Assembly (NCBI GenBank): GCA_031835245.2
Contig: JAVKOQ020000071.1
Span: 62,001 to 126,000 of the forward strand
Source: Balamuthia mandrillaris
Taxonomy: Eukaryota
DNA length: 64,000 nt
Direction: 5' to 3'
Part shown: in pieces, positions 6,183 through 61,466 of the stretch
Numbering within the stretch: the stretch's first letter is position 1
How the letters are laid out: every line of letters starts with the position of its first letter
Made by a program: the position numbers and the translations under genes
The notes under the pieces: model-generated
Told to the model about the DNA's origin: nothing
Databases searched by the model: none
What the model saw: only the letters and a program-made list of their open reading frames with translations

Positions 6183-6610
6183 TTAATAGTTGGAGAGCAT
6201 CTTAACGATGGTCTGGAGGAATCTACCAAAGCCAACAGTGCGTTTGTTCATGGCAACATTCCAATCGGCTGTTAATACAAAAGTAATGATGTCAGGAAAC
6301 AAAGAAGTGGAAGAACAAGCATGAGAATCAGATGAAGAACAAGAACGAAGAAGAAGAACAAGCGTGAGCACAAGAACGAAGAGCAAAACGAAGAAGAAGA
6401 CGGGAATGATGTACGAGTGGTGCAGGGCATAGAAGGAGGAGCATAGATGCTCGGGTCCAAAGGCCCGGCCACTGTATTTTCGAACGTGATCTGCAGCAGA
6501 CCAGCTCCGAAAACGGGCAGGTCGCTGAGGGCTTGCTTCACCAAGTAACCGTACTGCGTTTGCGCTTTGTTTACCCACACCTTTGTTCTTATGTTTTAGT
6601 TCGTTTGTTC

Positions 6611-6641
<31 letters not shown>

Positions 6642-7219
6642 CGCAGAGAGGAGAACGGGAAGCGGAACGTACAGTGAGGCTACCGGGAAAGCCGTCCGGA
6701 AGTTCAAAGGTCCAAACGCTGCATTTGACGCCATCCACGGTCTCGTCCCTGACGTATTGGGCGTCGTCGGGGAGGCTCCAACTGAGAACATCTATGTAAC
6801 CCTATTTTTATCTGTTAAAAGAAAGAAAGCGGACAAGAACAACAGGGAAACGTTACGTCCGTAAAGACCTCGGTCCAACAGATGTTGTTCCTCTCAAACC
6901 AATAGAAAGTGATGTCATCGGGGTTCACGTTGGGGTTGGCGATGACGGTCGTCTCGAAGTAAACGGGGAAATAGTGAGCTCCGGCCACGCTGAACCTCAT
7001 GGCTCCAAGCTTGGCGTCCAGGGCAAGCCCTCCGGAGAGGAAGGCCTGTTGGGTGTTGTCCGAGCCCGCCACGGTCCAGTTGGTGGTGAAGGCCTGAGCC
7101 AAAGCGGGAGGGGAGCGCAGCGGCAGGGGCTGCTGTTGGCCCTGGAACGACAGCGGCCCGGCGGAGCAGAGAGCGGCCGACAGCAGGAAGCAGAAAAGCA
7201 AGCGGAGAGAGGGCTGCAT
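6183..7219 (-). CDS. Secreted ependymin-related-like protein, paralog A
   Basis: Signal peptide MQPSLRLLFCFLLSAALCSAG, PPALAQAF, NICW, ETVDGVKC, and FENTVAGPLDPSIYAPPSMPC. This pattern is typical of EPDR-like proteins; family assigned from motif memory. Confidence 0.65.
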
Positions 7220-7837: not shown

Positions 7838-8850
7838 TTACTGGTTGGTGAGCGTCTCCATGATGGTCTGGAAGAGGCCGCCAAAGCCAACATCGCGCTT
7901 GGCCATGAAGTTACCAAAGTCGGCTTGAAAGCAACAATAAACGTGAGCCATTGAACCAAGAAGAGAGAGAGAGAGAGAAGCAACACAAGAAGAAAAGGTG
8001 ACTTACGGGTGACGCAGTCCAAGTGAGGAGGAGCATAGATGGCAGGGTCCAAGGGGCCAGCCTCAGCGTTGCTGAACTTGATCAGCACCTTGCCGACTCC
8101 GTACATGTCCTGGTCGACGCGAGCCTGCTTCACCAAGTAACCGTATTTGGTCTGCTCTTTGCTCACCCACACCTGTTTTTAAGATTAGAGCAGTTCAAAA
8201 AAATAAAAGCACACGAAGAAGAAGGAAGCATGTACGGTGAGGCCATCAAAAAAGCCGCTAGTAAGGTTGAAGGCCCAAACGCTGCACTTCACGCCGTCCA
8301 CGGTCTCGTCCTTGACGTACTGGGCGTCCTCGGGGATGCTCCAGTCGAACAGCTCCAAATAACCCTATTGTTACAAAACAAGATTAGAAAAGTTAAACAA
8401 AGGGGATGGATCGAGCAAAAAAGAAAACAGAAGTGTTTTAAACAAAAACAAACAAAGACGTACATCAGAGAACTTCTCGGTCCAGCAAATGTTGTTCCTC
8501 TCGAACCAGTAGAAGGTCACCTCGTCGGGGTTCACGTCGGGGTTGGCGATGAGGGTGGTCTCGAAGTAAACGGGGAACCACTGGGCGCCGGCGATGGCCA
8601 GCCTCAGGGCGCCGTGCTTGGTGTCCAGGGCCAGGCTGCCGGAGAGGAAGACCTTGTTGGTCCAGGAGGAGCCCACGGCGGAGACGGTCCAGTTGGTGAG
8701 GAAGGCCTGGGCCAGGGCGGGGGGCGCCTTGCCGAACGCGGCGCCGGTCGGCTTGTAGGAGTAGTCCTGCACGGAGAGGGGTCTGGCGGCGGAGGCGGCG
8801 GCCACCAGGCAGAGAGAGGCCACCAGGACGAGGAGAACAGCGGGCTGCAT
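7838..8850 (-). CDS. Secreted ependymin-related-like protein, paralog B
   Basis: Signal peptide MQPAVLLVLVASLCLVAAASA. Clearly paralogous to 6183-7219 (shared FPVYFETT, ANP, TFYWFERNNICWTE, YGYLVKQA) with matching introns. Confidence 0.65.
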
Positions 8851-9147: not shown

Positions 9148-9211
9148 GAGCTTAACTTCGCTGATCGGACGGGAAGCGGTGCTTTCTCCGCAGTATGGCC
9201 GCATCCGACTG
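9148..9211 (-). pseudogene. Inverted 5' half of the 5S rRNA gene (truncated copy or 5S-derived small RNA)
   Basis: Its reverse complement matches 9489-9552 at 63/64 positions. It ends after box A (AGTTAAGC) and is followed by TTTT on the minus strand. Confidence 0.85.
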
Positions 9212-9493
9212 CCGAAGTGGAACGCTAACAATATAATAATATCGTCGGATACGGCCAAAGACTATTCTGATATGGAGGATGGACCCCTCCATCGTGGTCC
9301 TGTCCTTTGGATTCTTGTAGTAGGTGGTCGGAAGCTTCATTGCATTCTGTGAAACAACGTACACACGAAAACAACCTTTGGATATTGGGGGTAGAACCGG
9401 GCATGACCATGCTTGCACGAAAGAGGGTTAGCAGGCAAATCAGGACGAAAGAGGCCAGATACGGCCATACTGTAAGAAAGTGAATACACAGTC

Positions 9494-9612
9494 GGATACG
9501 GCCATACTGCGGAGAAAGCACCGCTTCCCGTCCGATCAGCGAAGTTAAGCTCCGCCAGGCGATGTTAGTACTGGGGTGGGTGACCACCCGGGAATCCATC
9601 GTGCTGTATCCT
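9494..9612 (+). rRNA. 5S ribosomal RNA
   Basis: 119 nt, GGATACGGCCATAC...GAAGTTAAGC...TTAGTACTGGGGTGGGTGACCACCCGGGAA...GCTGTATCCT. Terminal helix pairs, and box A and box C are present. Confidence 0.97.
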
Positions 9613-10370: not shown

Positions 10371-11066
10371 ATGAAGATTCTCATTACAGTTGCCTTGTTG
10401 GCCTTGTTTGCATCTGCCTCGCTTGCAAGAGTGAACTATGGCTCTGGGGATGTGTCCTATGATGGTGACGAGGTGACCTACGACGGCGGAGACGTCTCCT
10501 ACGATGGCGGAGAGGTGACCTACGATGGAGGAGATGTTTCTTATGACGGCGGAGACGTGACTTACGATGGAGGTGATACTTCCTACGATGGTGGCGACGT
10601 CACTTACGATGGCGGAGATGTTTCTTATGATGGCGGTGATGTTACCTATGATGGTGGGGATGTGTCTTATGACGGCGGAGACGTGACTTATGATGGTGGA
10701 GACGTGTCCTACGATGGAGGAGACGTTTCTTACGATGGAGGCGATGTTGAATACGATGGCGGCTGTTATTACGCTGGAGGTGTAACCTATGATGGCGGTG
10801 ATGTCTCCTACGATGGAGGTGACGTTACCTATGACGGAGGAGATGTCTCTTATGACGGCGGAGACGTGACCTACGACGGCGGCGATACTTCCTACGATGG
10901 CGGCGACGTCTCTTACGATGGTGGTGATGTCTCTTACGACGGTGGCGACGTGACCTACGATGGCGGTGATGTCTCCTACGACGGTGGCGATGTCTCTTAC
11001 GATGGCGGTGATGTTGCCTATGATGGTAGCGCTTACGATGGCGCGGACGAGGTGACTTACAAGTAA
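10371..11066 (+). CDS. Secreted acidic heptad-repeat protein (YDGGDV[S/T])n
   Basis: Signal peptide MKILITVALLALFASASLA and about 28 heptads. Codons vary synonymously while the peptide stays fixed. Intronless. Confidence 0.9.
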   Translation: MKILITVALLALFASASLARVNYGSGDVSYDGDEVTYDGGDVSYDGGEVTYDGGDVSYDGGDVTYDGGDTSYDGGDVTYDGGDVSYDGGDVTYDGGDVSYDGGDVTYDGGDVSYDGGDVSYDGGDVEYDGGCYYAGGVTYDGGDVSYDGGDVTYDGGDVSYDGGDVTYDGGDTSYDGGDVSYDGGDVSYDGGDVTYDGGDVSYDGGDVSYDGGDVAYDGSAYDGADEVTYK

Positions 11067-46046: not shown

Positions 46047-47089
46047 ATGGAAAACGACGATCCCGCAAGGCGCAAGAAGGATCCCCGTGTCATTCGAGGC
46101 CGACACGGCTCCATGTCCGGCACAGAGCTGGCCAAAGCGACCGGCACTGTACCCTACCACTCCTACTCTCAGGAGGAGAAGCGAGCCTTCACCATCCACA
46201 TCAACAACTTGCTTAAAGATGACCCCGACCTTCAAGACGTTTTGCCAATGGATCCCGAAAGCAAAGACCTCTTCGAGGTCGTTTCCAAAGGAGTTCTTCT
46301 TTGGTAAATGAGCGCTCCTCCTTTTATTCTTGCTTCGATGCGCACTCGCTATTAACAGTATTCTAATAATGAAAACACAGCAAGTTGATAAACCGTATCA
46401 AACCAGGCACGATCGATCCTAAGAAAATAGTGGGAGATACGGAGGGCCTCATCTTCAATGCAATTGAGAACCACAACCTCAGCATTGAGGCAGCTAGGAA
46501 GCTTGGCTGTAACGTCACCAACTTGGGTGCCCAGGACTTTATAGAGAAGCAAGCACATCTTATCTTGGCCTTGGTTTGGCAAATCCTTCGAGTAAGTTAT
46601 TCACTTTGTTTCTTTTTGTCTAGTTTCGTTTTAACATTCATTCACTGCAAAGGTTGGGCTGTTGGATGGGTTGGATGCGCACCCAGCAATGGAAGAGTTC
46701 CAAAAGAACGAGGAGAAGGAAGAGGAAGACCGCAACAACAGCGCCAACGCCTCTCGCCACAATCGGGCAGAACAGAACCTGTTGAAATGGTTTAATGCCA
46801 TGTTGACTCGCGCAGGTTATGAAGGCAACGTTAGAAACTTTGGGGAAGATATCAAGGTCTGCTAAAACGCGTTCTGATTCGTGCTCTTCAATTCCAATTC
46901 CTTCCTCTTATCAATTTCATACAGGACGCAACCAAGTATGTCATTCTCATGAATGAGATCGCGCCAGACTTGTGCTCCAAGGACGCTCTTTCTATTGAAG
47001 AGCCTTCCAATAGGGCCAGAGCCGTCATCGACAACGCCACCAAACTTGGTTGTGACCAGTTTGTAACTGCCAAAGAAATTCTCATGGTT

Positions 47090-47126
<37 letters not shown>

Positions 47127-48427
47127 CTCGCTCTCTCACTCTCTCTCACCCCAAATTCTCCACTCTCCTCTCTATGCGTTCTTCTCTCTTCCCTCTCTTC
47201 GTTCTCCCTCTGTTCACTAAACTGGAGTATGCGTGTAGGGAAATCGCAAGTTAAATTTAGCATTCACCGCCACACTGTTTCACAAGCATACCCAACTGCA
47301 AGCCAAGTACAAGCAAAACAAACAAGAGGCAGTGGCCAGAAAGAGCGAGGAGGAGGTTCAGGAACTTAAGAGAATTCTCCAAGAACAGGAAGCCAGCCTA
47401 AAAGCACGGCAGGAAGAAATTGAGAAGTATAAGCAGATCGAAGAGGAGGTGGAGACATTCTCGCAAGAACTTTCATTTGTGGGGTTACTCACTTATGTGA
47501 CTTTTAATCCATCAGGTGGAGACATGGAGAAAGAGCCAAGAAGTGGAGAAGATGAGACTGACGGAGGAGCTCCGCAAAATGGAAGAGCAGATGAGAAAGC
47601 GAGAGGAAGAGATACAAAGAAAGGAACGAGAGCTCAGGGAGCTTCTCCAAAAACAGGAGCAACAACGCAAAGAGGAAGAAGAGGCAGAGAAGAGAAGACA
47701 GGAGAGAGCGGAGGAAAGAAGGAGGCAAGAAGTCCAACAAGAAGAGGAAGCTAGAAGGAAGGAACTAGAGAGACAGAAGGAGATCTTCGAGATGAAGGAG
47801 AGAATGAGGGAAGCCTCCGCTGAGACCGAGAAGAAGAGGTTCATTGCCCTGAGGAACGAGGAGGAGTACCTGCGCAAACGGGCCATAGAGACGGCTGAAC
47901 GCAGAGAGCTCATGGAGATCCAACAAGTGCAACACGACCTTAAGGCCAAGAAAGAAAAGGTGGAGAAGGAGCGCGTGGAAGTGGTAAAGAAGATGGCTGA
48001 CAGGGACAAGTTCCCTGTAGTAGTCTTTGTGACCAGCAACAGCTCCGACCCCGAGTTGAAGGCCGCGGAGAAGCACTTGGCAAACGAAGGAAGGAATGCG
48101 GTGGTGGCCAGCGCGCTGGAGGAGGTCCTGAAACTGGTACAGAAGAAGGGAGCCAGGCACGTGGTCCTCATGGAGCTCTTTGGCGAGGACGACACCCGGC
48201 ACGACATCGCTGTGGACATAGCCTCCGCCGTCAACGAGGCCACCAACGGCAAGGCGGTGCTCATCTGCTGGAACAAGCTGGTGTTGAAGGACGCCAAAGT
48301 GCAGGGCAGGTGCGAGGCCTTTGGCATCAGTCCCACCAAGCGAGGACAGACGTTGTGGAAGCTGTTGGGAGTGAAGGCGGCTCCTCTGGTGACCTCCAGG
48401 GTGAGAGCTCCCAACTTCAACAAGTGA
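46047..48427 (+). CDS. Fimbrin-like protein: one CH-CH actin-binding domain, a charged helix and an alpha/beta C-terminal domain
   Basis: HSYSQEEKRAFTIHINNLL, KLINRIKPGTID, ENHNLSIEAARKLGC, HLILALVWQILR, EQNLLKWFN, GNRKLNLAF; then an E/R/K-rich region. Confidence 0.88.
47449..47515 (+). mobile_element. Putative recently gained intron (67 nt) flanked by a 12-bp direct repeat; body copied from the intron at 60416-60563
   Basis: AGGTGGAGACAT at 47447-47458 and 47514-47525. 47458-47515 matches 60506-60563 at 56/58. Confidence 0.75.
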
Positions 48428-49061
48428 GCCACACGCATTGTAACGATATCTGTCCATGTGCTAGAACAAAAAGAGAATTACGTCTACATATAATAATATC
48501 GAAAAAAAGGGAATGCAAAATGAAGAAGAAGCAGAAGAGGAAGAAGAGGAGGAGGAGGAGGAAGAAGCAGACAAAGTCCAGAGACCAGTGACATCCCACC
48601 GCTTGCAGGTCGGCTAGAGCTGCCCTGTTTTTTTTTTCTGATCTGAATACTACCACACAACAAGCTTCCAGAAGGAGCAGAGAGAGATAGATAGAACAAG
48701 AAGCAGTGCTCGCAACGACGAAGCAGTGCTTTTATTTTTTTCCATTGGGCATGTCTCATTTAATTGTTCTATTAACCTAAAATGGAAAGTAATTTATAAA
48801 ATTATGATTTCCTATTGGTGCTTTGAAAATCTATGCAGGTGATCCATTGCGACGTTCCATCAAACTTGTCCGTCACCATCGTCCATTCCAAAGCGTGGCG
48901 GCGTGTCCGTCTTCGTCCGAAACGCTGCTTGGTTGGTCCTCGCCACTTCATCGTTTCTCTCTTCTTCTTTTGTTTCGAAAAAACCGGTGTCGCTGTTTCT
49001 TTTTTTTTTATTTTGCAAACTTCTGGAGAATTAACCTAAATCACTCACTCACACCAACACC

Positions 49062-49962
49062 ATGTCAACAACGGCAACCACAACCGCCACACCGCAGTTC
49101 AAAAAACTGAGAAAAGCAGGTGAAGTGGATGAGATGTTCGATGAGATCAAAGTGACCAAGACCTTGAAGGGCCAAAGAACCTTTGACATTACCGACGAGT
49201 AAAAACTCACCTTCTCTTCCACCCCCCCTCTTTCGTTCTCACGAGTTTACTCTTTTTTCGTTCCGATAAATAGGACAGCGTTGACGCACCTGGTAATGCA
49301 ATGTGAGCAAAGGCCAAAGGTGTTCATCTGCCAGCTGGCTCAGAAGAAAGGCGGAGACGAGCTGCAGGATGTGCTGAACACATCGGTGGACATCACCAGG
49401 TTCCTCTCCAACTTTTGGCAGTGGCAGAACAAAGACGCCATCCAACAATACTTTTCCTCTGCATCTTCTCTCAAGTAACGCACTTTTCTTTCTGTTTTTA
49501 AACGATTCGTCTGTTCTCCACTTAACGTTTTGTTTGCTGTTGAACAGAAAGTTGAAGCTAAAGAAGACAGTTCCCGATCTTCCTCGCCTTTGCTCCCATA
49601 TAACCCACTTGGTTCGACACTACTACCCCGACTGCAAGTACCGCTGTTGGGTTCGTGTGGTGGACCACTCCTACCTCAGCATCTATCCGCGGAACACCGT
49701 CTCCTTGGCCATGCGCTCGGACGCCCTCTGGACCGCTTTCTTCATTGGCGGTGTGGGTGTCGGCGCCATGGCCTTTGAGAAGGGAAGACGCTCAGCCACA
49801 AAGACCTTCACCGCAGAGATGAGGTACCACTTCACGGAGGGCGAGGAGGCCATCTGGAGGCAGTGCCAGAACCAGTTTGTAGCGGGAACCAAGTTGGAAA
49901 AGCATTTGCTGCAGGTGTTGAAGAAAGAGGAGAGCCGAAGGAGAAAGAGGAAGAACAAGTAA
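49062..49962 (+). CDS. Hypothetical protein with one hydrophobic segment (3 exons)
   Basis: Coding-like exons joined by GT-AG introns; LWTAFFIGGVGVGAMAF segment. No family recognised. Confidence 0.6.
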
Positions 49963-49976
49963 CGCGAGAGAGAGAG

Positions 49977-50014
<38 letters not shown>

Positions 50015-50071
50015 CGTGCGATAGCTGTACCCTATTTTGTATACAACCATTTCATTTGTGAATAGATCACC

Positions 50072-53000
50072 TCAAAGTTGAACAAAACGACGCGTAGGCT
50101 CCATTTCATAAGAGTTGGGAGGAACAGCGTCGGTCACGATCTTAGGCCTCCGGCGTTTCTTACCGATGCGGTACATCATGTAGAGTATTCCTCCGAGCAG
50201 TCCCAATCCCAAAGCCGCTCCAAATATTCCTCCGATGATAGCTGTTAGTTTTTGTGTGATGTTTAGTTATTGAGGTTTCTAATGAGAGAGGACAAGACGA
50301 AGCGAATAGAAGAAGATGATAGCAGCAGTACCTCCAGTGTTGATATCGTTGTCAGTCTTTCGAGCGCAAGAACATCTTAATGCATCGAAAATCAGTCCGC
50401 TGTCCCGTTGTTCGCCGTCTCCTTCGCTGTCATCCTCCTGCCCCACCATTCGGCACTTCTCGTCGTTTCCAGCGCACTTGCATTGGCACTCCGCGTCCAG
50501 GTCGAGTGCGTACAGGAAGTTGTTGTGCCAGTCCTGGCAGTCCTCATCGCTCTGCCACTTACACACACAGCCACATGTTTCTAGGCTCACCTCTCGGTCT
50601 CCCTGGCATCGCGTGTTCGGGTCCATCGTGCACTCACAGGAGCACTTATTTTTCTTCTTCTTCCACTTGCTGTTATTGTCGTTGGTCTGGGCGCATTTCT
50701 GGTCGGTCAGGTCACAGCTGCAGTCACATTCCTCCGCTGAGAAGACAGCGAATTCGCCATCTTCCGCTTTGCATTGTTGGTCAGTTAGCTTGCATTCGCA
50801 CTCACAGCTCCCATCAGAGGCCTTTCCAAAGTACTTTCCAACGTTTGCTTTGCACCACTCATCGGTAATGGGACATTCGCAGGAGCAGAAGCCTGGCTTC
50901 TTCCTTGCTTCAGCCCCATCCTGCAGTTTGCACATGGCGTCCGTCAAGCGACAATTGCAGGTGCAGCTGTTCGTCACTTCCCAATGGGCAGCAACCCCCT
51001 CGTTAGCTTGAGCACAGAGTGTGCCGTTCAGGCCGCACTGGCAAAGGCAAGTCTCGTGGTTGGCAACGTGGTGGGCTCCAAGTCGAGCCACACATTGCCT
51101 ATCTTGGAGAGCACATTGGCAACTGCAGGTGTCTGTGTCGGCCACCATATCCTGACTTGATACTCTGGTGCGACAAGTTCCGTCGGTGAGTTTGCACTCG
51201 CACTCGCATCGGTCTGCAGAAACCTTTCCAAAGTCTTGCCCGTACTCCAGTCTGCAAGCAGCATCGTCAGCTGCACCACAACCGCAAGTGCACGTAGCCG
51301 CGTTAAACGTCGCCTCTGGTCCATGCCTGAACTGGCAAACAGAAGCATCGATACCACATCGGCACCCACATTGAGCAGCAGGAAGAGCCTCCCAGTCGGC
51401 ACTCCCACCGGGATAAAAGTCGCCGCAGTCGTCGTCGATCAGAATGGGACAGCCGCATTCGCACTGGTCCTCTTTCTTCCTCCAGTTCGGTCCCACTGTT
51501 TGTTTGCAATGCTCATCGTTCACATCACATTTGCATTGACAGGCTCCGTTTGTGGTGTTGGCGTACGCGTTCTCTCCTTCAACAGCTTTACAAATGGTGT
51601 CGTCCGCAATGCATTGGCATCTGCATTGGTCGGCGGTCTTTTGCCAATAGGGTCCTTTGTTCTGTCGGCACCATTGAGAATCAGCAACAGGGCATTTGCA
51701 TTGGCAGACCTCTCCTCCGTCGAGGTAAGCCTCGGGACCCAAGGCCTCCTCACAGGTCTCTTCCTCGAGTCCACATTCGCAGTCACACCGGTCTCCTCCT
51801 TTGGCAACCCAGTTTACGTTGCTCGAATGCTCAGCAGCGCAGAAGGCGTCCGTAACGGAGCACTTGCAGGAACAGGTGGCCGCGTCCGCTGTCGAATAAG
51901 GGCCGAAGCGTTGTCTGCATTTGTCGTCCGTCAGAGTGCATTCGCAGGCACAATTGCCATTTGCAGCAGCTTTCCAGTCCTGTCCCTTGTTGGTCTGGCA
52001 CCAGTTTGCAGAGCTGGTAACAGGGCAGGTGCACGTGCAAGCTTGTGCGTTGAAGACGCCCTCGGGACCTTGCTGTTCGTGGCACTTGGTCTGGTTCATG
52101 GTGCAGCCGCAGTTGCAAGTGCCGTCCGCCATAGGTCGATAGTTCGGGTTGCCTCCATTCTGTACAGCACAAAACACATCGCTGATATCACAACCGCACT
52201 CGCAAGTGTCAAACCTAGCGATGGAGTATCGTCCTTTTGCTTGCACGCACGCAGCGTTGCTCACGAAGCACTCGCAATCGCACTTGTCCGCTCTCTTTCT
52301 CCAAAAGTTGTTGTTCCCGTTCTCCTGCACGCAAATAGCGGTCGTCAGAGGGCACCCGCACTGACAAGTGTCCATCGACAATTCAGCGTAGCTTCCTGCT
52401 CTCGTCTCGCACGTCTGCTGGTTCAGCGTACATTCGCACTCGCATAAGGTTGCGCTCTTCTTCCAATCTATTCCTTTTGTTGCTTGGCACCACGCGGTGT
52501 TCGTAGCAGGGCATTGACAAGCGCAACCTGCGGCCGTAAACTTGGCTTCCTCTCCGTTTTCCTCCTTGCACCTCTCCTCCGAGTAGGCGCACTGACAGCT
52601 ACACTCTCCGCTGTCCTCGTCCAGAACGCCCTCCTCCCTCTCTCCGCAAAACAGGAAAGCGCATTCAGCTGGGCAGGTCGTTGGCTTGGTCGCTTGTACC
52701 TTGTTGTGAAGAATTCTGATGTGCTCAGAGGTGGTGCAGAAGCCCCAACCGTCAGAGGTGTAACGTCCCACTGGCTCTCCTCCAAAGTCAAAGATCGGGG
52801 TCCGTATGTCGGAGAAGAAGGCACGTTCGCGAGGAACGCTGGTGCCGGCGGCTTTCCATGCCTCTTTGTTGTCAATTGCGTCTGGACAGCCTGGTATCGC
52901 GTATAGCCTGTTTGTAGCTGCTTGGAGTGGACCGCAGCCATTTTGCCAGTCGTTGTCTGTATTGGTGAAAGGTTAACACCCATTTATAAGGAGAAGAAGA

Positions 53001-53468
53001 CCAAGAAGAACAAGTAGAACGACAACGACAACAAACGGAAACAACGTACTAAGCTCGCAGTTATCCGGAGTCAACAAGAAGGTCCCGATCACAATCGGGA
53101 CGGAAGGCCGGCAACACTTGCCTGCAAAGACCCATCCATCCGCAAGCTTGTCCGAACAGGTCCAGGAAGTGACCTTGGTTTCTCCCACCCACATAGCTCC
53201 CTTGCTACTGCACTGGCTGGCATCCGTGCAAGCTTGGTTGTCATGGTCCTGGATCATCAGCACTCGCGCGCCCGCCAATGAGTTGGGAAAGGTGTACTTG
53301 CTGCCGGAAGTGATGTTGTAGTTGGCTCTGAGGGGGAAGCCAAAGGCGCCTTTGGTGCATTCATTCTGAACCGTGAAGAAGACGTTCTCGTCGTTCTCGT
53401 AGCCACAGTTGCCTGAAAACTCGTAAACGAGTTGATACCATCCCAACTTTTTCACACCGACGATAAGC

Positions 53469-53511
<43 letters not shown>

Positions 53512-53913
53512 GTTAGCTCTAAAACAGGGAGTGAGAGGCAAAGGTATGAAACTAGACTCACGCTTGACTGCCGGAGAACGAGTTGTGGTAAATATTCATG
53601 TCATACTTTTGGGTCGTATCAAAGTCCCAAGTGACTCGACTGGGATCGTAGAGCTTAAGACCAACGTTACTTTCAAGAGTCAAGTCACCACATGCAACCT
53701 GAACAGGTGTTTATTAAAGAGAAGAAGTTAAACCGAGGAAGAGAGAAAGCGGGCATACTTTTTTAACCCTACCTGGCAAATAGCATTTTCTCCAACGAGG
53801 TCACTGGGATCTCGGGCCTTTGGCTCGTGACCAACAACGACCCCGCTCACCCAACACCGTGCCAAAACGGACAGTACGAATAGCGCAACACACAACGCCC
53901 GTTGCGGCCTCAT
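50072..53913 (-). CDS. Large Cys-rich type I membrane protein with about 27 CxCxC repeats
   Basis: Signal-like N-terminus MRPQRALCVALFVLSVLA, a ~24-aa C-x(n)-CxCxC period, TM segment IIGGIFGAALGLGLLGGILYMMY, then KKRRR and a short tail. Confidence 0.88.
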
Positions 53914-54480
53914 CCTTATGTATAGGAGGTTCCTTCCTTTCCTTCCTTCCGGTGTGTGTCGCTTTGGCCCTCTCTTGCGGAGAGCAGGAATAATAATAAA
54001 AAAGGTGGAAAGGAGGAGGAGGAGGGGAAGGAGGCAGGCTTCCTGAAAGTAAGCGCACGTCGTTTCGATGAAGAAGCCTAAGCTTGCACGCTCTCCCCTC
54101 AAGGCCACCTTTAAAGGGTGTTTTTTTTCCTGACCAATGGGCAATCATATGGCTTCCGGCATGAAACGGCACTTCGCTCTATTTTTAAGCAAAACCGCTA
54201 TAGGATGGCTCAACGGGCAACCGGAAAGAAGGAGGAACAGGGAGTGGAGCAGGGCATGCCTTAAAAACAAAAGGCCATGCAGCCAAGCCCGTGGCTCTCT
54301 GTCGCTTTGATCCCTCTGGCAGTTCAGTGGCCCATTGGGCACACGCCTCTCGGGGAAGAGAAGACGGTCGGGAATGCGCCTCCTGCCGGGAAGCGGCTGT
54401 TGAGAGCTGAAGAACGAACAAAGAACAGAGGTGGAACAACCCAGAAGGGCACAAGAAAATCAGGGAGAGAGAGAGAGAGC

Positions 54481-54515
<35 letters not shown>

Positions 54516-55336
54516 AGAGAGTGAGAGAGAGAGTGAGAGTGAGAGAGAGAGAACAAGTAATGTATCAAGCAGCGCAGAAAGAAGAGGGAAGAGAAGAAAG
54601 AACAAGCAGTAGGGCGGTATCCTACCCGGTACAGCAGAAAAGAAAGTAGAGTGACGCCCTATCCATTACCATTAGCACTTGTTCTTCGTGAAGGGCAGTT
54701 TACACGCAGCGTAGGCGTAAAAACGTTGGGTAGTCTTACTTCTTTTTTCGAGAGAGTTTCATAGCCTCCTCTGTTGTTGGGTTCAGGTGTAGGAAAGAAC
54801 GAAACTACCAACGGGAAGGAGCACTTCGTTTTGTGAACGGGATATATTGTTTCGTATAATTGTTTTCTATTAATTAAAAAACTTGGGAGCAACTCTGCAC
54901 TTGTGCCTGTGGCACAGCCGGATCCGCAGCATGGGGTCGGTTCATGCAAGCAAGCCGGCGGACCACAAAGAATCTCGCACACCCAACAAACCAAGTTTAG
55001 AACAGAGAGACAGTCTTGGCGGACCCGGTCGACCAGGGATTTAAGCTTAGTAGGAACAGATAGATGCTACACCTTTACCGGAGCGAACAAAGAGTGGTTA
55101 TTCCCCACATCTGGTGCGCGGAGAACTTCGCCCTAGAGCAAGCCCTGAAAGTCTCTCTCTTCGTAGCGATAGAGGCAACATGTTTCATCTCCTGGGTCGT
55201 CATGAAAATATTCCTTCCTGTGTCGTCATGAATAATTTGTAGTGTTTTCCTTGTGTCGACACGACTTATTTTCTTTTTTTCGCAGAACCCAAAAGAAGAG
55301 CAGAAAAAAACAGAGAAAGAAAGAGAGAGAGAGAGG

Positions 55337-55982
55337 ATGGCAAGCAGCAGCGAGAGCAAAGGTCTGTGCGTGGTCTTGGTGGAGGACACCTACGAGTGCC
55401 TCGAGTACCACTACCCCAAGCTGCGTTTGGAGGAGGCCGGCTACGACGTGCGCTCCGTGGGCCCCGAGAAGGGCAAGGTCTACAAGTCCAAGGAGGGCTA
55501 CTGGGGTCCCTCGGATGCCACCTTCAAGGACATTGATGCCGCTCAGGTCAAGTGCCTCGTGGTACCCGGCGGCTTTTGTACCGACAGGCTGAGAAGGTTT
55601 CCTGAGTGCAACAAGCTCGTTGCTGATGCCTTCAACGTATGTAATTACCCAACGCCTTTTGCAACTACTCCATTTTCTTTTAAACTAATGATTCTCTCTC
55701 TCTTCTCTCTCTCTCTTCTCTCTCTCTCTCTTCTCTCTTTCTCTGTAGAATGGAGCTGTTATTGGGTTCATTTGTCACGGTGCGTGGGTGCCCATCAGCG
55801 CCAAGATCGTCAAAGGAAAGAGGGTAACCAGCCACTTTGCTGTGCGCGACGACCTGGAGAACGCCGGTGCCGAGTGGGTGGACGAGCCCTGCGTGGTGGA
55901 TGGCAAGCTGGTCACTGCCCAGCTGCCCAAGGACCTTCCCGCCTTCATGAAGGCCATTCTCTCTCTTTTGGAACAACAATAA
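55337..55982 (+). CDS. DJ-1/PfpI family protein (2 exons)
   Basis: EDTYECLEYHYPKLRLEEAG, LVVPGGFCTDRLRR, GFICHGAW, DDLENAGAEWVD..VVDGKLVTAQLPKDLPAF. Confidence 0.93.
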
Positions 55983-56006
55983 GATGGAAATGGAATGTTG
56001 TACCCC

Positions 56007-56073
<67 letters not shown>

Positions 56074-56180
56074 TCTTCTCACCCCATAGCGAACGCTAAT
56101 CTCGCTTCGCATGCGAAAGAGACAGTGTAAAGCAAAGCTTCATTTCAAAGAGACAACAAAAACAAAAAGGTTTGTTACTT

Positions 56181-58788
56181 TTACTTTGTGGCCCATGGGG
56201 GTGGAGGGTAAGCGCCTTGGTGATGGGGTGGTTGCTGGGAAGGATGGTGTTGGTGGTGGAGTGGTGGTGGCATCTTATGCATACCTGGAGCAGCTCCGCC
56301 AGAAGTAGGAGGAGCCATGATGCCCTGCGGTAAACTATTGTAGAAGCCAGCCAGCGATCGACCTGCCGAAGAAGCGGAAGAAGGCATTCCTCCATAAAAT
56401 CCAGACCCTCCTGCCCCTCCAGAAGGATACGGCTGTTGCTGTTGTGGAGGAAATGGATAAGGTTGGTGAGGTTGATGAGCTCCTTGTTGTGACGGTGGCA
56501 GCGAGGGTCTTTGTTGTTGATGCTGAGGGTGGAAGGAAGAGGAGGAAGCAGAGGAAGAAGGAGGATGAGAAGAGGAGGAAGAGGAGAGCAAAGAAGAGGA
56601 AGAGGAAGAAGAGGAAGTCGGGGAAAGCAAGGAAGCTAGCGAGGCCTCATTCAAAAGTTGGTTCAGCGAGCCGTTTTGTAGACTTTGCAAAAGATTGGAA
56701 TCAATGGTGGGAGCAGAAGACGACGAAGAACTGCTGTTGGAAGAAGCAGTGGCGCTCGAAGTGCCACTGGCAGACGGACCAGCAGCAGAGTACCAACCTG
56801 AGGAAGAGGAAGAAGCAGCAGAGGAAGAGGAAGAAGGAGCAGCAGAGGTTGTCGCTGGCTGTGCGGAGGTTGGAGGGAAAAGACTGGACAAGAAGTTGGA
56901 GGTTGTGGAGCTAGTCATAGAACTCAACGTTGAAGATGGTGGCTGGTTGTAGTTACTTGAGTTCGAAAGGCCTCCACCACCAGAAGACAATGACGAAGCT
57001 GGAGGCTGTTGGTGTTGTGGTTGTTGTTGGTTCATGCTGCTTAGGACTTGTTGCAAGCTGTTAAGGACATCCGCTGTGTTTGTGTTGGAAGGACCGAGCG
57101 ATGATGATGCTGGAACAGAAGAGTAGCCGGAAGAAGCCGACGACGACGAAGGATAAAAGGAAGACGGCGGGGCTGATTGTTGTGACACGGATGAACCTAC
57201 ACCACCAAGACCCAGACCCAGACCCAGACCACCAGTGAGAGCGCCGAGATTCAAGCCAGCCAAAGGATGGTTGACGGAAGGAGCGGGAGTGAGACCTCCT
57301 ACGCCTGCTCCTCCTCCTGTTGCTGCTTGGGCTGTGGCAAGTTGGGATATCAATTGGGCCAACAACTGTTGTTGCTGTTGTTGGGCAGGTGGAAATACGG
57401 AGGCGTTTAGTGGAGGTCTTTCCTCACGAGCAATGATGTCTAACGCCTCATCACAACTCACTGCACGAAAGACTGGAAAAAATAAAAAAGCTTTTAGTTC
57501 AGGTGTTCGCTTTTGAGGCAGGAAGGAACAAAGACAGAGAGAAAAGGGATGGGAGAGAAAGAAAACCTTGATTTCTGCCACCAGGTCGAATTACGTGGAC
57601 GTCCGTAGTACCAAGTCTCTCGTGTTGGCTTCCTACGACAAGGACATAGCGCATACCCCTACGCTCGGCTCTTTGGACAGCATCATTGGTGGTCATTCGG
57701 TCGATAAAATAGGTCTCAACTCCAGTCAAACCAAGACGGTCTTCCAGCATACGTCTCACCGATGTAGCATAGCTCCTACGAGAAGAGAGAAAAAGAGAGT
57801 AGAAACAAAACAGGAAGGACGAGAGAAAAGAGAGCCTTCATCAGCACAGGTCATAGGAAAGCATGGAAAAGACCCAAGCGTCATCACCACCGATGCGAAA
57901 ATACCATCGCAAGATTTAACGTAGAGAGAGAGAGAGAGAGAGAGAGACGGCTATCGACTTGGGGCTCATAAAAAAGAAACAGGCCGAGGGTGAAGAAGAG
58001 GAAAATAAAAGAAATAAACGGACAGAGAAAAAACTGACAAACCACACCAACATCATCAGACTGCAACATACAACAACAACACACAACGAAAGAAAGAAAA
58101 GAAAAAGAAAAGAGACAAGGAAAACAAACCTTTGCTGCTGGCTAAGGTAGACAACCTTGCAAATGGTGGGTTGGTTAGAAGAAGCAGTAGAAGACAAAGT
58201 ACTACCGACACTCCCTCTGCCGACCGGCTCCGTCGGCGGACCTCCTCCACGCCTTAGTTCCGGAGGTGGACTGTCGAAGCGACTACGTGGACGTTTCCTT
58301 GGGCCACCTCTATCTCGCTCTCTACTGTCTCTGTCGCCATCTCTGTCTCTATCCCTGTCCCCGTCTCTATGAGGATCGTCCCGCAAATCGGCTCTACCAC
58401 GTTTAGGCTTTGGCTCGCGGTTGTCTGCGAGGTTGAGGTCGATGCGAAGGCCACCTATGAGACGGCCGTTCTCGGCCTGGATGGCCCTTTGGGCGGCTTC
58501 GGGCGTCTCATACTGGATGAAGCCAAAGCTGCGACGCAGGACGATCTCCTCCCTGATCTCTCCGTACTTGCTGAATATGTCATAGAGCTCCCTGCGGGAG
58601 GTCTTCTCAGAGGCCAGGTTGCCCAAAAAGATGCGACAATTGGGGGGACGTGTGGACGGGTCTCTTGCGGCGGCTGAGCCTGAGCCTCCTCCTCCTCCTC
58701 CTCCTCCTCCTGCACTACCTCCTCTACCACCAGGACCCGCGTTGCTGGGGCCGTCGTAATCGTGGACATCAGAGGAAGGCTGTTGCAT
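56181..58788 (-). CDS. NCOA5-like RNA-binding protein (RRM, anticodon-binding-like domain, low-complexity tail)
   Basis: RIFLGNLASEKTSRRELYDIFSKYG..SFGFIQY, an RD-rich linker, then SYATSVRRML..GMRYVLVVGSQHE. Confidence 0.75.
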
Positions 58789-59626
58789 GATCAAATGGCC
58801 TTGCTTGGATCTAAAACAAGAAGGGAGGAGGTGAACATAGGGACAAAATATATCAAAAACAAGACAGAGGAAAGGAGCAACGAAGAGAGAGAGCGATGGG
58901 AGGTAAAAGCGTAGTAGGGAAAAGAGATAGGTACGGAATGGGTCGAACGACAAAAAAAAAGTCTATCTACTGACGCAGGACTTCAAAATACTTCTTCTAC
59001 TGGCAGCCAAATAGATGGAAGGAGGAAGTGGGGGCAAAAAAAAAAAATAATCAGGAGTCCGTTTCTGCTGGAATGCTCTCTAGTGCTCTACGCTTCCTTT
59101 TTATCTTTCTTCTTTCTGGCTGTAGCCGTTTCTTTAACCTTTCCCTTCGCATGCGAAGTGCAACGGGAGCGCCCTCACTAACATTTGTCCACATGCCTCA
59201 GGTTTGGCGACTTGCCATTTCATGAGACATAAACTTCCCTTGTCCTCTTTGACACCCTCATCGAACCCTAATGGCAGCAACCCTAACCTAAAATTAATGA
59301 TATTTCAAGTCGACATAAATCCACACACCAATCAAAAATCAGAAATGTCTACAAAATAGATCAGATCACAGACTGGGATTAAATAAAAAATAAAGAAAGG
59401 AAAGACAACCGGGTGGCTCAGAGCAAAGCAGCCGATCCTGCCAAACCCTCCTGACCGCGGCAGCTAAAATAGCAGAGAAGGCAAAGTGTTGTCCTTTTTT
59501 TTCCCCACCAAATTTTGCTGCGTGGCGCCGCTTTACCCCCCACCCCCCACCCCAAGCGGTGTGGCTCTTTCTTCATTGTCGTTTCGGCTATTGCAGTTAG
59601 AGGAAGCCTTCACCACCACCACCACC

Positions 59627-61466
59627 ATGCGTGAACGAAAGGAGGACCCCGGCAGGGAGTCCCATCCAGGTGACAGGGACCAACATGAATCGCAACAACA
59701 AAAGTACCTCCTCTTTATCTTTTTTTCTCCTCCTCCTCCTCTGTCCTTCTTACGTTCAAAAAAAAAAGTTGGCAAATCTTTGGAGCCGTCTCCTTCTACT
59801 TTATTTCCAGCATCGCTCTCGTCTTCCTCAACAAAATGCTGCTCAACAACTTTGAGTACGAGCTGCCGCTCTTCAGCGTTTGGTTCCAGCTGATCGTGGC
59901 CATCGTCTGCGTCTGTGCCTTGGGCTTCCTGGGGCAGAGAGTGAGCCAGGTCTCCTTCATACCGCCCGCCTCGTTTGACATTGACACCGCCAAGCAGATC
60001 GTGCCGCTGGCCTGTATATTCGTGTGCATGGTTGCTACTAGCAACCTCACATTGCAGTTCTCTGAAGTCTCTTTCTATCAGGTATTCTTTCTTGCCGTTT
60101 CTTGCCTATTCGTTCTTTCTTGTCGTTTCTTTCTTTCTTGTCGTTTCTTTCTTCTTTCGTTCTTCTGCAAGCGTGTATGTTATTAACAGGAACATGTTTA
60201 AAACTTCAAACCAAAAAGGTCGTTAGGTCATTAACCATTTTGTTCAGCATAGCGTTGACCTACGTTTTGCTCGACAAAACTACCTCATTGGCCGCGATGC
60301 GCGCCTGTTTGGTGGTTGTTGTGGGCTTTGTGCTGGGGGTGAAGGGCGAGGTGAATTTTAACTTTTTGAGCGTGGTGTTTGGAACTTCCTCCAGTTTCTT
60401 CGTTGCACTCTACAGGTAGGTGAAATTTTGTTTTTCTGTTATTTCGAAATACACCACGTCCGTGGATGGGCGTTCTGAAGCCCTCTAGCCCACCCCATCC
60501 CTGTGTTCTCGCAAGAACTTTCATTTGTGAGTTTACTCACTTATGTGACTTTTAATCCATCAGCATCTATGTAAAGAAAAAAAGTGCTGTCGTCAACGAT
60601 AACCAATGGTACTTTCTTTTTTTCTTTCCTCGTTCTTTTCCATCATCCTTTTCATCTTTTGTCTTTCGTATTCTTTTTGTTTTTCTTCCGGTGCACTACC
60701 TTCTTGCTCTTGCTCTTGTTTTTCGTTCTTCGTTCTTCTCCATCATCATCATCATCTTCTTCTTCTCTTCACATCTAACTTACCTTTTTCTATTTTCTTT
60801 ATTCGTTCCTTACAAAAGGCGGCTATTAATGTATAATAACGTCTTAGCGGCGGTGTTACTGTTGCCCATCGTGTTGATGTCCGGCGAAGCATCAATGCTG
60901 CTTCACTCCAAGATGTTTTGGCAGAGAGACTATTGGTTCACTATGATCATCACCGGTGTTTTCGGCTTCCTCATCAACATTGCCACTTTCCTTCAAATCA
61001 AATACACGAGCGCTCTCACTCACAACCTCTCAGGCACTGCTAAGGCTTGTGTGCAAACGGTTCTCTCCATTTTTATATGGCGCAATCCTGTTTCGCTCAT
61101 GGTATTTCTTCCTTCTTTCTTTCTGGCTTTCGCTTCTCTGTTTCTCTCCTTCGTTCTTCTCTCGTTCTCTTTACTCTTCTTTCTTCTCTTCCTTCCCTTA
61201 TCTTATTTCTCACTTCTCTTTTCTCTCGCTTTCACACATCTCTCGAACAAAAGAACGCGATTGGTATCTTCCTGGTCATCATCGGTTCGTTCTGGTACAG
61301 CCGAGTGCGCTACTTTGAAATGTTGGAGCAACAACAGCAACAACAACTCGCCAAGTCCAAAGAATCCCTCACTTCCGTCGCCATCGTACCCATTTCCTCT
61401 TCATCTTCTTCTTCCCGAGAGGACATCGACCACACCAACAACAGCAAATCGCGCAGAGAAGAGTAA
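59627..61466 (+). CDS. Nucleotide-sugar transporter, GDP-fucose transporter (SLC35C1)-like
   Basis: SSIALVFLNKML, PLFSVWFQ, EVSFYQ|VVRSLTILF, SSFFVALYSIYVKK, LQIKYTSALTHNLSGTAKACVQT. Confidence 0.9.

What the first reader, a model, noticed from the sequence alone, without database searches (positions are those of the whole stretch)
47447..47525. Apparent intron gain: 12-bp duplication plus a copy of another gene's intron 3' end
Seen: the fimbrin-like gene has a 67-nt GT-AG intron (47449-47515) that must be spliced to keep the frame. It is bracketed by a perfect 12-bp direct repeat, AGGTGGAGACAT (47447-47458 and 47514-47525). The repeat supplies the GT donor, so splicing restores the pre-insertion exon exactly (EEE|VETWRK). 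The last 58 nt (47458-47515) match the last 58 nt of an intron in the unrelated sugar-transporter gene (60506-60563) at 56/58, ending at the same acceptor AG. Neither intron has the microsatellite content of most neighbours. Known: Introner elements and repair-associated intron gains leave direct repeats, and 5' truncation with a target duplication is typical of target-primed reverse transcription. Inference: this is either a short intron-generating mobile family or a 5'-truncated copy of one spliceosomal intron inserted into another gene, by reverse splicing/RT or by templated break repair.
Basis: partly seen in the sequence, partly recalled or inferred. Interest (0 to 1): 0.9.

Follow-up and report, generated by a model that had tools for sequence, protein, structure and literature searches.

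The report
Mobile intron family in an amoeba
Both introns are copies of a many-copy sequence family of the amoeba Balamuthia that is present in some alleles and absent from others, and the short one is a front-truncated copy flanked by duplicated target DNA, a shape that likely records how such introns insert, possibly through an RNA template.

Summary
The 67-nt GT-AG intron, the 12-bp repeat and the 56/58 match are all there, and the gene is the annotated B. mandrillaris 'fimbrin' spliced this way.

It is not a one-off copy of the transporter intron. In three DNA-like runs the shared 3' segment is a dispersed family: 14-18 contigs per run leave it at the same AG into unlike flanks, and summed depth suggests tens to a few hundred copies. 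The whole 148-nt transporter intron looks like a full-length copy. Both sites are presence/absence polymorphisms, and one run holds both alleles of the 67-nt site.

The full-length copy sits after CAG with no added bases. The short copy keeps the family 3' end, lacks about 88-90 nt of the front, joins by a 3-nt microhomology, and takes its GT from a 12-13-bp target duplication.

Best reading: an introner family (about 0.9), with none listed for the 29 amoebozoan rows I checked. The short copy is likely an RNA-templated, 3'-anchored insertion (about 0.5). Splicing and mechanism are not shown directly.

The parts
47449..47515 (+). 67-nt phase-0 intron: 7-10 nt of duplicated exon followed by the 3' 58-60 nt of the family element
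   Evidence: absent from the empty allele in runs X2 and X5
47447..47458 (+). left copy of the target duplication; supplies the GT donor; its last three bases (CAT, 47456-47458) equal the family majority sequence at the truncation point
   Evidence: 13 bp in the X1 and X5 filled alleles (table 4)
47514..47525 (+). right copy of the target duplication (acceptor AG plus first 10 nt of the downstream exon)
47456..47515 (+). family-derived 3' segment, with a candidate branch motif CTCAC at 47488-47492 (read from sequence, not tested)
46047..48427 (+). host gene 1: two CH domains plus coiled coil, named fimbrin by NCBI; five introns
60416..60563 (+). 148-nt phase-2 intron, apparently a full-length family copy, GTAGGT..CATCAG, no clear terminal inverted repeat
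   Evidence: precise 148-nt absence in a genomic contig of X5
60413..60415 (+). CAG before the full-length copy, repeated as the intron's last three bases: either a 3-bp target duplication or a site preference (cannot be told apart)
   Evidence: (both=3)
60464..60500 (+). predicted GC-rich hairpin in the middle of the element; the truncation point and internal deletions of other copies lie 3-6 nt 3' of it
59627..61466 (+). host gene 2: TPT-family (nucleotide-sugar-type) transporter; five introns

Best explanation
The 67-nt intron is a 5'-truncated copy of a many-copy, allele-polymorphic sequence family of Balamuthia mandrillaris that likely spreads as ready-made introns (an introner), and this copy was likely made by copying the element's RNA into a nicked target from its 3' end. 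Shown: many copies sharing one 3' end; filled and empty alleles at both sites; a precise 148-nt insertion after CAG at one site; and at the other an intact 3' end, a lost front, a 3-nt microhomology and a 12-13-bp duplication. Inferred steps: (1) the excised, debranched intron RNA ending in CAUCAG is anchored at a genomic CAG, by pairing with the nicked strand or by a first reverse-splicing step; (2) a host or retrotransposon reverse transcriptase copies it and here stopped near the GC hairpin; (3) the cDNA end annealed by CAT to the target 10 nt downstream, duplicating it; (4) because the target read CAG|GT, the duplicate supplied a new donor and the insertion was spliced out and tolerated. 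At CAG sites not followed by GT only full-length, flush insertions would survive in exons, as at 60416.
For: Family: depth over the segment is 2635/10556/596 against 7.7/77.7/14.3 in the flank. 15, 18 and 14 listed contigs in X1, X2 and X5 leave at 60563-60565 into unlike sequence, consensus agreement 0.41-0.60. Upstream loose ends match the front of the 148-nt intron, and some show a GTAAGT start. Gain: the empty allele is in X2 and X5, and X5 holds empty (depth 14.3) and filled (13.4) side by side; P0002 has the empty-allele peptide; at site 2 an X5 contig lacks exactly 148 nt yet runs into the next intron. The two copies (56/58) are more alike than the two alleles' exon (124/133, X2 records 13 and 14). 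Junctions: 13-bp duplication, CAT microhomology, and ATCAG shared by the element end and the empty target. These resemble 5'-truncated L1-type insertions (TSD peak 14-16 bp, about 80% with microhomology; PMC2912911, passages), tailless retrocopies (target matches the last 2-18 nt of the RNA; PMC5322556, passages) and linear group II intron retrohoming (exact 3' junction, truncated 5' junction with microhomology; PMC3280974, passages).
Against: Only one truncated copy was seen with both flanks. The full-length copy has no long duplication, which ordinary target-primed retroposition would give, so the model needs selection to explain the difference. There is no poly(A) or repeat tail, and no partner reverse transcriptase was identified. 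A degenerate 14-bp inverted repeat (7/14 in the window, 8/14 with another copy's 5' end; P about 0.02 before allowing for 7 offsets tried) leaves a DNA-transposon origin open. DNA polymerases also stall at hairpins, and other copies have internal deletions ending at the same point. In linear group II retrohoming the overhang is described as lost, not duplicated. Splicing of a filled allele is not shown in RNA. Summed contig depth is not a copy number (the tool says so). That most other copies are introns is inferred; it is shown for 2 of 2 in the window.
Confidence: 0.5

Rival explanations
1. Same family, but the short copy arose by DNA repair. A break just downstream of the site was repaired by copying from a full-length copy (at the same site on the homologue, or elsewhere), stopped at the hairpin and closed by CAT microhomology (abortive gap repair or template switch).
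For: Microhomology and a hairpin-adjacent break fit polymerase slippage. Other copies carry internal deletions ending at 60505-60506 (X1 and X5 joints). Filled/empty heterozygotes exist.
Against: It needs a full-length allele at this site, not seen in X1, X2 or X5 (contigs cannot prove absence), or an ectopic template ending exactly at the element's AG by chance.
Confidence: 0.2
2. The family is a worn miniature DNA transposon with a 3-bp CAG target duplication that supplies the acceptor (Micromonas/Aureococcus type), and the short copy is a one-ended or mis-repaired insertion.
For: CAG is repeated at site 2. The best terminal inverted match falls exactly at the offset that removes CAG (7/14 and 8/14). 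Conserved ends with variable middles are typical of such deletion series. Most classified introners are TIR elements (about 82%; PMC12130899, part 1 read).
Against: No inverted repeat of 6 or more contiguous bases. The listed 3' ends stop at CAG+0 to 2, although AAG is the commonest acceptor of the other introns here (6 of 8). A 10-nt extra duplication is not an expected product.
Confidence: 0.2
3. One-off copying of the transporter intron's 3' end into a staggered break (Daphnia-type repair gain).
For: Direct repeat of 12-13 bp; the donor-like copy lies 13 kb away; such repeats flanked 43% of gained Daphnia introns (PMC3443670, passages).
Against: The segment is a many-copy family. The CAT microhomology matches the family majority and not the window's transporter copy. 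X1's allele differs from that copy at 3 sites, and the transporter intron is itself polymorphic.
Confidence: 0.04
4. Assembly chimera.
For: No listed piece spans the whole stretch, and no X2 contig with the window's exact filled junction was listed.
Against: X1 has one contig over 47156-47517 and another over 47488-48095, and X5 has one over 47307-47483, so both junctions exist in other samples.
Confidence: 0.01

Closest known systems
Introners without TIR or resolvable TSD: fungal introner-like elements (PMC3609843) and Micromonas IEs (PMC3879977); 'direct insertion' class of PMC9860276
   Same: Short (under 200 nt), non-coding, many near-identical copies; ends are splice sites; flush insertion; predicted hairpins; internal decay in length; presence/absence polymorphism.
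   Different: A copy with a 5' truncation and a 12-13-bp duplication that recruits the donor. 'truncat' has 0 occurrences in the main texts of PMC9860276, PMC12130899 and PMC3879977. The host is an amoebozoan.
TSD-recruiting introners (Symbiodinium type: element carries the 3' site, donor comes from the TSD; PMC9860276 Fig. 2B legend)
   Same: The 67-nt intron takes its GT from the duplication and its acceptor from the element, with no net change to the mRNA.
   Different: There the TSD is a fixed 4 bp with TIRs for the family. Here the duplication is 12-13 bp, in one truncated copy, and the full-length copy carries its own donor.
L1-type target-primed insertions and tailless retropseudogenes (PMC2912911, PMC5322556)
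   Same: Intact 3' end, 5' truncation with microhomology, duplication of about 13 bp, target matching the template's last bases.
   Different: No A tail or TT/AAAA target, no tRNA/5S/7SL-like head found, and the full-length copy has no long duplication.
Linear group II intron retrohoming and the proposed spliceosomal retrohoming (PMC3280974; PMC3609843; PMC11146597)
   Same: Exact 3' junction at the exon boundary, error-prone 5' junction with truncation and microhomology.
   Different: No ribozyme or intron-encoded protein here. [quoted passage not shown] The downstream overhang is lost in that system but duplicated here.
Daphnia-type intron gain at double-strand breaks (as reviewed in PMC3443670)
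   Same: Polymorphic new intron flanked by a short direct repeat.
   Different: The insert is the exact 3' end of a many-copy family, not a unique or organellar fragment.

Membership tests
Introner (PMC12130899 criteria) | At least 4 homologous introns in non-paralogous genes | tested here: inconclusive
   Two shown in unrelated genes. 14-18 listed contigs per run with unlike 3' flanks, but their intron status could not be read; no genome is held.
Introner | Recent gain: filled and empty alleles at the same site | tested here: met
   Both sites.
Introner | Element or target supplies GT and AG so that removal restores the reading frame | tested here: met
   the annotated protein agrees at site 1.
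Introner | Splicing of a filled allele seen in RNA | tested here: inconclusive
   4 of 30 laid X15 reads join 60415 to 60564, but that sample's allele is unknown. X14 had no well-matching exon reads at site 1.
TIR/MITE-type introner | Terminal inverted repeat of 6 or more bases | tested here: inconclusive
   No clear repeat; degenerate 7/14 and 8/14 matches only.
TIR/MITE-type introner | Fixed-length, locus-specific target duplication | tested here: inconclusive
   CAG at both sites, so TSD and site preference cannot be separated (the ambiguity described in PMC9860276 methods). Site 1 has 12-13 bp.
Fungal ILE / Micromonas IE type | Flush insertion with no added bases, and a stable predicted fold | tested here: met
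   Exact 148-nt skip. Fold z = -2.11, 6 of 200 shuffles as good: modest.
Fungal ILE / Micromonas IE type | Copies confined to the sense strand of genes | not testable with these tools
   2 of 2 in the window; no genome available.
Target-primed retroposon (SINE-like or tailless retrocopy) | Intact 3' end, 5' truncation with microhomology, duplication of about 7-20 bp | tested here: met
   Site 1 only.
Target-primed retroposon (SINE-like or tailless retrocopy) | Long duplication also around full-length copies | tested here: not met
   Site 2 has only CAG. Not filed as a SINE.
Target-primed retroposon (SINE-like or tailless retrocopy) | A-rich or repeat tail; structural-RNA-derived head | tested here: not met
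   Ends in CATCAG; no Rfam match at gathering level in 60300-60700.
Target-primed retroposon (SINE-like or tailless retrocopy) | Partner non-LTR element sharing the 3' end | not testable with these tools
   No genome. No RT or transposase family among 38 of 157 long ORFs of the window scanned with Pfam.
Daphnia-type break-repair gain | Insert of unique or organellar origin | tested here: not met
   The insert is a family 3' end.

The most novel reading that the evidence does not exclude
An active TIR-less introner family in an amoebozoan spreads through its own excised intron RNA, anchored 3' end first at genomic CAG, and the 67-nt intron is a captured incomplete product of that reaction. A genome-wide set of such truncated copies would be direct junction evidence for the long-proposed RNA route of intron transposition.
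Probability: 0.3. Interest if true: 0.88.

Novelty: new variant of a known kind. Interest (0 to 1): 0.62.

Why it matters
How introners without transposon hallmarks move is unresolved: about 72% of families could not be classified (PMC12130899), and spread by the spliceosome remains a proposal (PMC11146597). Perfect insertions leave no mechanistic trace; failed ones do. This family has copies still segregating between alleles, likely in the hundreds, in a species with telomere-level assembly and RNA-seq already described (bioRxiv 2025.02.25.640156, passages). So the RNA-versus-DNA question can be tested computationally. It would also extend introners to Amoebozoa, where the 29 rows I checked in the largest survey list none.

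Tried and rejected
No whole genome is held, so there is no direct copy catalogue.

No listed holder of the stretch is on record as RNA. X14 gave 17 laid reads, none at 95% or better and none joining exons, so it says nothing on splicing at site 1.

Exact-motif scans found 0 hits in metagenome contigs twice and 0 in viral contigs. There were 2 hits in prokaryote genomes that do not extend beyond 20-23 nt, with about 1.1 expected by chance; rejected.

Rfam gave no match at gathering level (6 weak ones), so snoRNA or other structural-RNA origin has no support.

No third copy lies in the window: best other local score 27 against 25-34 for 30 shuffles.

Solo-LTR, helitron and recombinase-circle readings were considered from recalled end rules. 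The ends do not fit the first two. A recombinase using a CAG core cannot be excluded but has no support.

Earlier scan notes: nothing for this sequence or genome; eight notes on other genomes did not bear on it.

Literature: 'introner'+'Balamuthia' 0 papers; 'introner'+'amoeba' since 2019 gave 8, none on this species by listing; some searches were listings used for leads. Supplement files 13-14 of PMC12130899 were not searched, the PMC9860276 file was cut when stored, and bioRxiv supplements are closed, so a mention there cannot be excluded.

Full report
Observation. The sequence claims hold: a 12-bp direct repeat at 47447-47458 and 47514-47525, a 67-nt GT-AG stretch whose removal keeps the frame, and a 56/58 match to 60506-60563 ending at the same AG (E 2.8e-20). 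The other nine introns of the two genes share 0-4 bases across their borders. A protein search with the last exon returned one protein among 7988 scored, named fimbrin of Balamuthia mandrillaris, identical to my spliced model; Pfam finds two CH domains. The second gene is a TPT-family transporter by weak exon-wise hits, with a 148-nt intron at 60416-60563.

It is a family. No genome was available, so I laid public runs on both sites, using 5 of the 18 listed. Over the shared segment, summed contig depth was 2635, 10556 and 596 in X1, X2 and X5, against 7.7, 77.7 and 14.3 in the flank. The tool warns that this is no copy number; rough ratios at the terminal bin give about 240, 160 and 40. Firmer: 15, 18 and 14 listed contigs leave the element at 60563-60565 into unlike flanks, with 45 rows not shown. 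Upstream loose ends match the middle and front of the 148-nt intron, and some show a GTAAGT start. So that whole intron looks like the unit. Members vary in the middle: some have longer hairpin regions, some have deletions ending at 60505-60506, one looks about 68 nt long. Whether most copies are introns could not be read.

Both sites are polymorphic. At site 1, X2 and X5 hold a contig that skips the insertion and has 7 other letters, reading EEE-QLDQ-VETW. X5 holds this empty allele (depth 14.3) and a filled one (13.4), and X1 showed only a filled one. The second cluster member, P0002, has the empty-allele peptide. X2 may be the window's own sample, so it is not independent support. The filled alleles of X1 and X5 keep 12 exon bases missing in the window, which makes the repeat 13 bp; the window's allele therefore carries a later in-frame deletion or an assembly error. 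At site 2, an X5 contig lacks exactly 148 nt and continues into the next intron, so it is most simply genomic. X1 has the same joint at low depth (2.6, side 27; run type unknown), and X2 shows the filled form. Four X15 RNA reads show the joined form, but that sample's allele is unknown, so splicing of a filled allele is not shown. Gain is the likely direction: copies at unrelated sites (56/58) are more alike than the two alleles' exon (124/133), and site 1 has a duplication.

Anatomy. The full-length copy sits after CAG and ends in CAG, with nothing added. Whether CAG is a duplication or a preference cannot be told from two sites. There is no clear terminal inverted repeat, only a degenerate 7/14 or 8/14 match, and no Rfam match. 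The fold is modestly stable (z -2.11), with a GC hairpin at 60464-60500. The short copy has the family's normal 3' junction after CAG and has lost the first 88-90 nt. It begins 3-6 nt past the hairpin, and joins through CAT, shared between the end of the duplication and the family's majority letters. The empty target also shares ATCAG with the element's end.

Mechanism. An exact 3' end with a sloppy 5' end, a microhomology and a duplication of about 13 bp is what RNA-templated, target-primed insertion leaves (PMC2912911, PMC5322556, PMC3280974; passages only). I therefore favour copying of excised intron RNA from its 3' end (0.5). Selection would explain the two shapes: at CAG|GT any duplication creates a donor, while elsewhere only flush full-length copies keep the frame. 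The copied piece runs about 35 nt past the candidate branch motif, so the template would be debranched (inference). Against this: it is one event, the full-length copy has no long duplication, no reverse transcriptase partner was found, and hairpin-adjacent deletions in other copies show that DNA slippage could break at the same place. Repair from a full-length template (0.2) and a worn DNA transposon (0.2) stay open. One-off copying from the transporter intron (0.04) and chimera (0.01) are unlikely.

Comparison with what is known. It works like a TIR-less introner of the fungal ILE or Micromonas kind (PMC3609843, part 1 of 3 read; PMC3879977 and PMC9860276, passages). The four-gene criterion is likely met but was not shown. 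It is not filed as a SINE or a MITE. In Dataset S6 of PMC12130899 (parts 1-2 of 7, passages and supplement searches) Balamuthia has no row, and all 29 rows of ten genera that I know as Amoebozoa list zero families. The 2022 survey lists two Balamuthia assemblies, apparently without gene counts, and scores Acanthamoeba and Vannella as negative. An Entamoeba study found no homology among gained introns (passages). A genome preprint for this species says its transposable elements await annotation (passages). My searches found no paper with both 'introner' and 'Balamuthia'; unseen supplements could still mention it.

Verdict. A real, recent intron gain by a previously unreported introner-like family, with one truncated copy that carries an unusual mechanistic clue. 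The family call is firm at about 0.9, the mechanism is open. Interest 0.62.

Noticed in passing
window 9148-9552: 405-bp element with 64-bp near-perfect terminal inverted repeats (63 of 64) and internal partial copies of the repeat; no flanking duplication of 3 bp or more found. MITE-like.
   Followed up: partly
window 47446-47447: The window's allele lacks 12 in-frame exon bases (four residues) present in the filled alleles of X1 and X5 and in the empty allele: a later deletion or an assembly error.
   Followed up: partly
window 46924-47053 and 47307-47439: Two allele classes differ at 7 of 130 and 9 of 133 exon positions within one run (X2), and similar classes recur in X5: deeply diverged haplotypes.
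   Followed up: no
window 60473-60563: In RNA run X15, 21 of 30 laid reads come from one longer variant of the element, and X14 shows a similar upstream end: a retained intron in a well-expressed gene or a source copy.
   Followed up: no
window 60425-60506: Other copies have internal deletions that remove the hairpin and end at 60505-60506, the same point as the truncation.
   Followed up: partly
window 60416-60423 and 60537-60545: The family's 5' start could pair with the stretch around the candidate branch motif if G-U pairs are allowed; read by eye, not supported by the predicted fold.
   Followed up: no
window 10445-11043: Tandem repeat array inside a minus-strand ORF with a below-cut-off Baculo_PEP_C hit.
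   Followed up: no
window 6382-7111 and 7979-8724: Local duplication at about 68% identity.
   Followed up: no
window 46304-61253: Six of the eight other introns of the two host genes end in AAG or TAG rather than CAG, five of them AAG in or near the transporter gene, and donors are varied.
   Followed up: no
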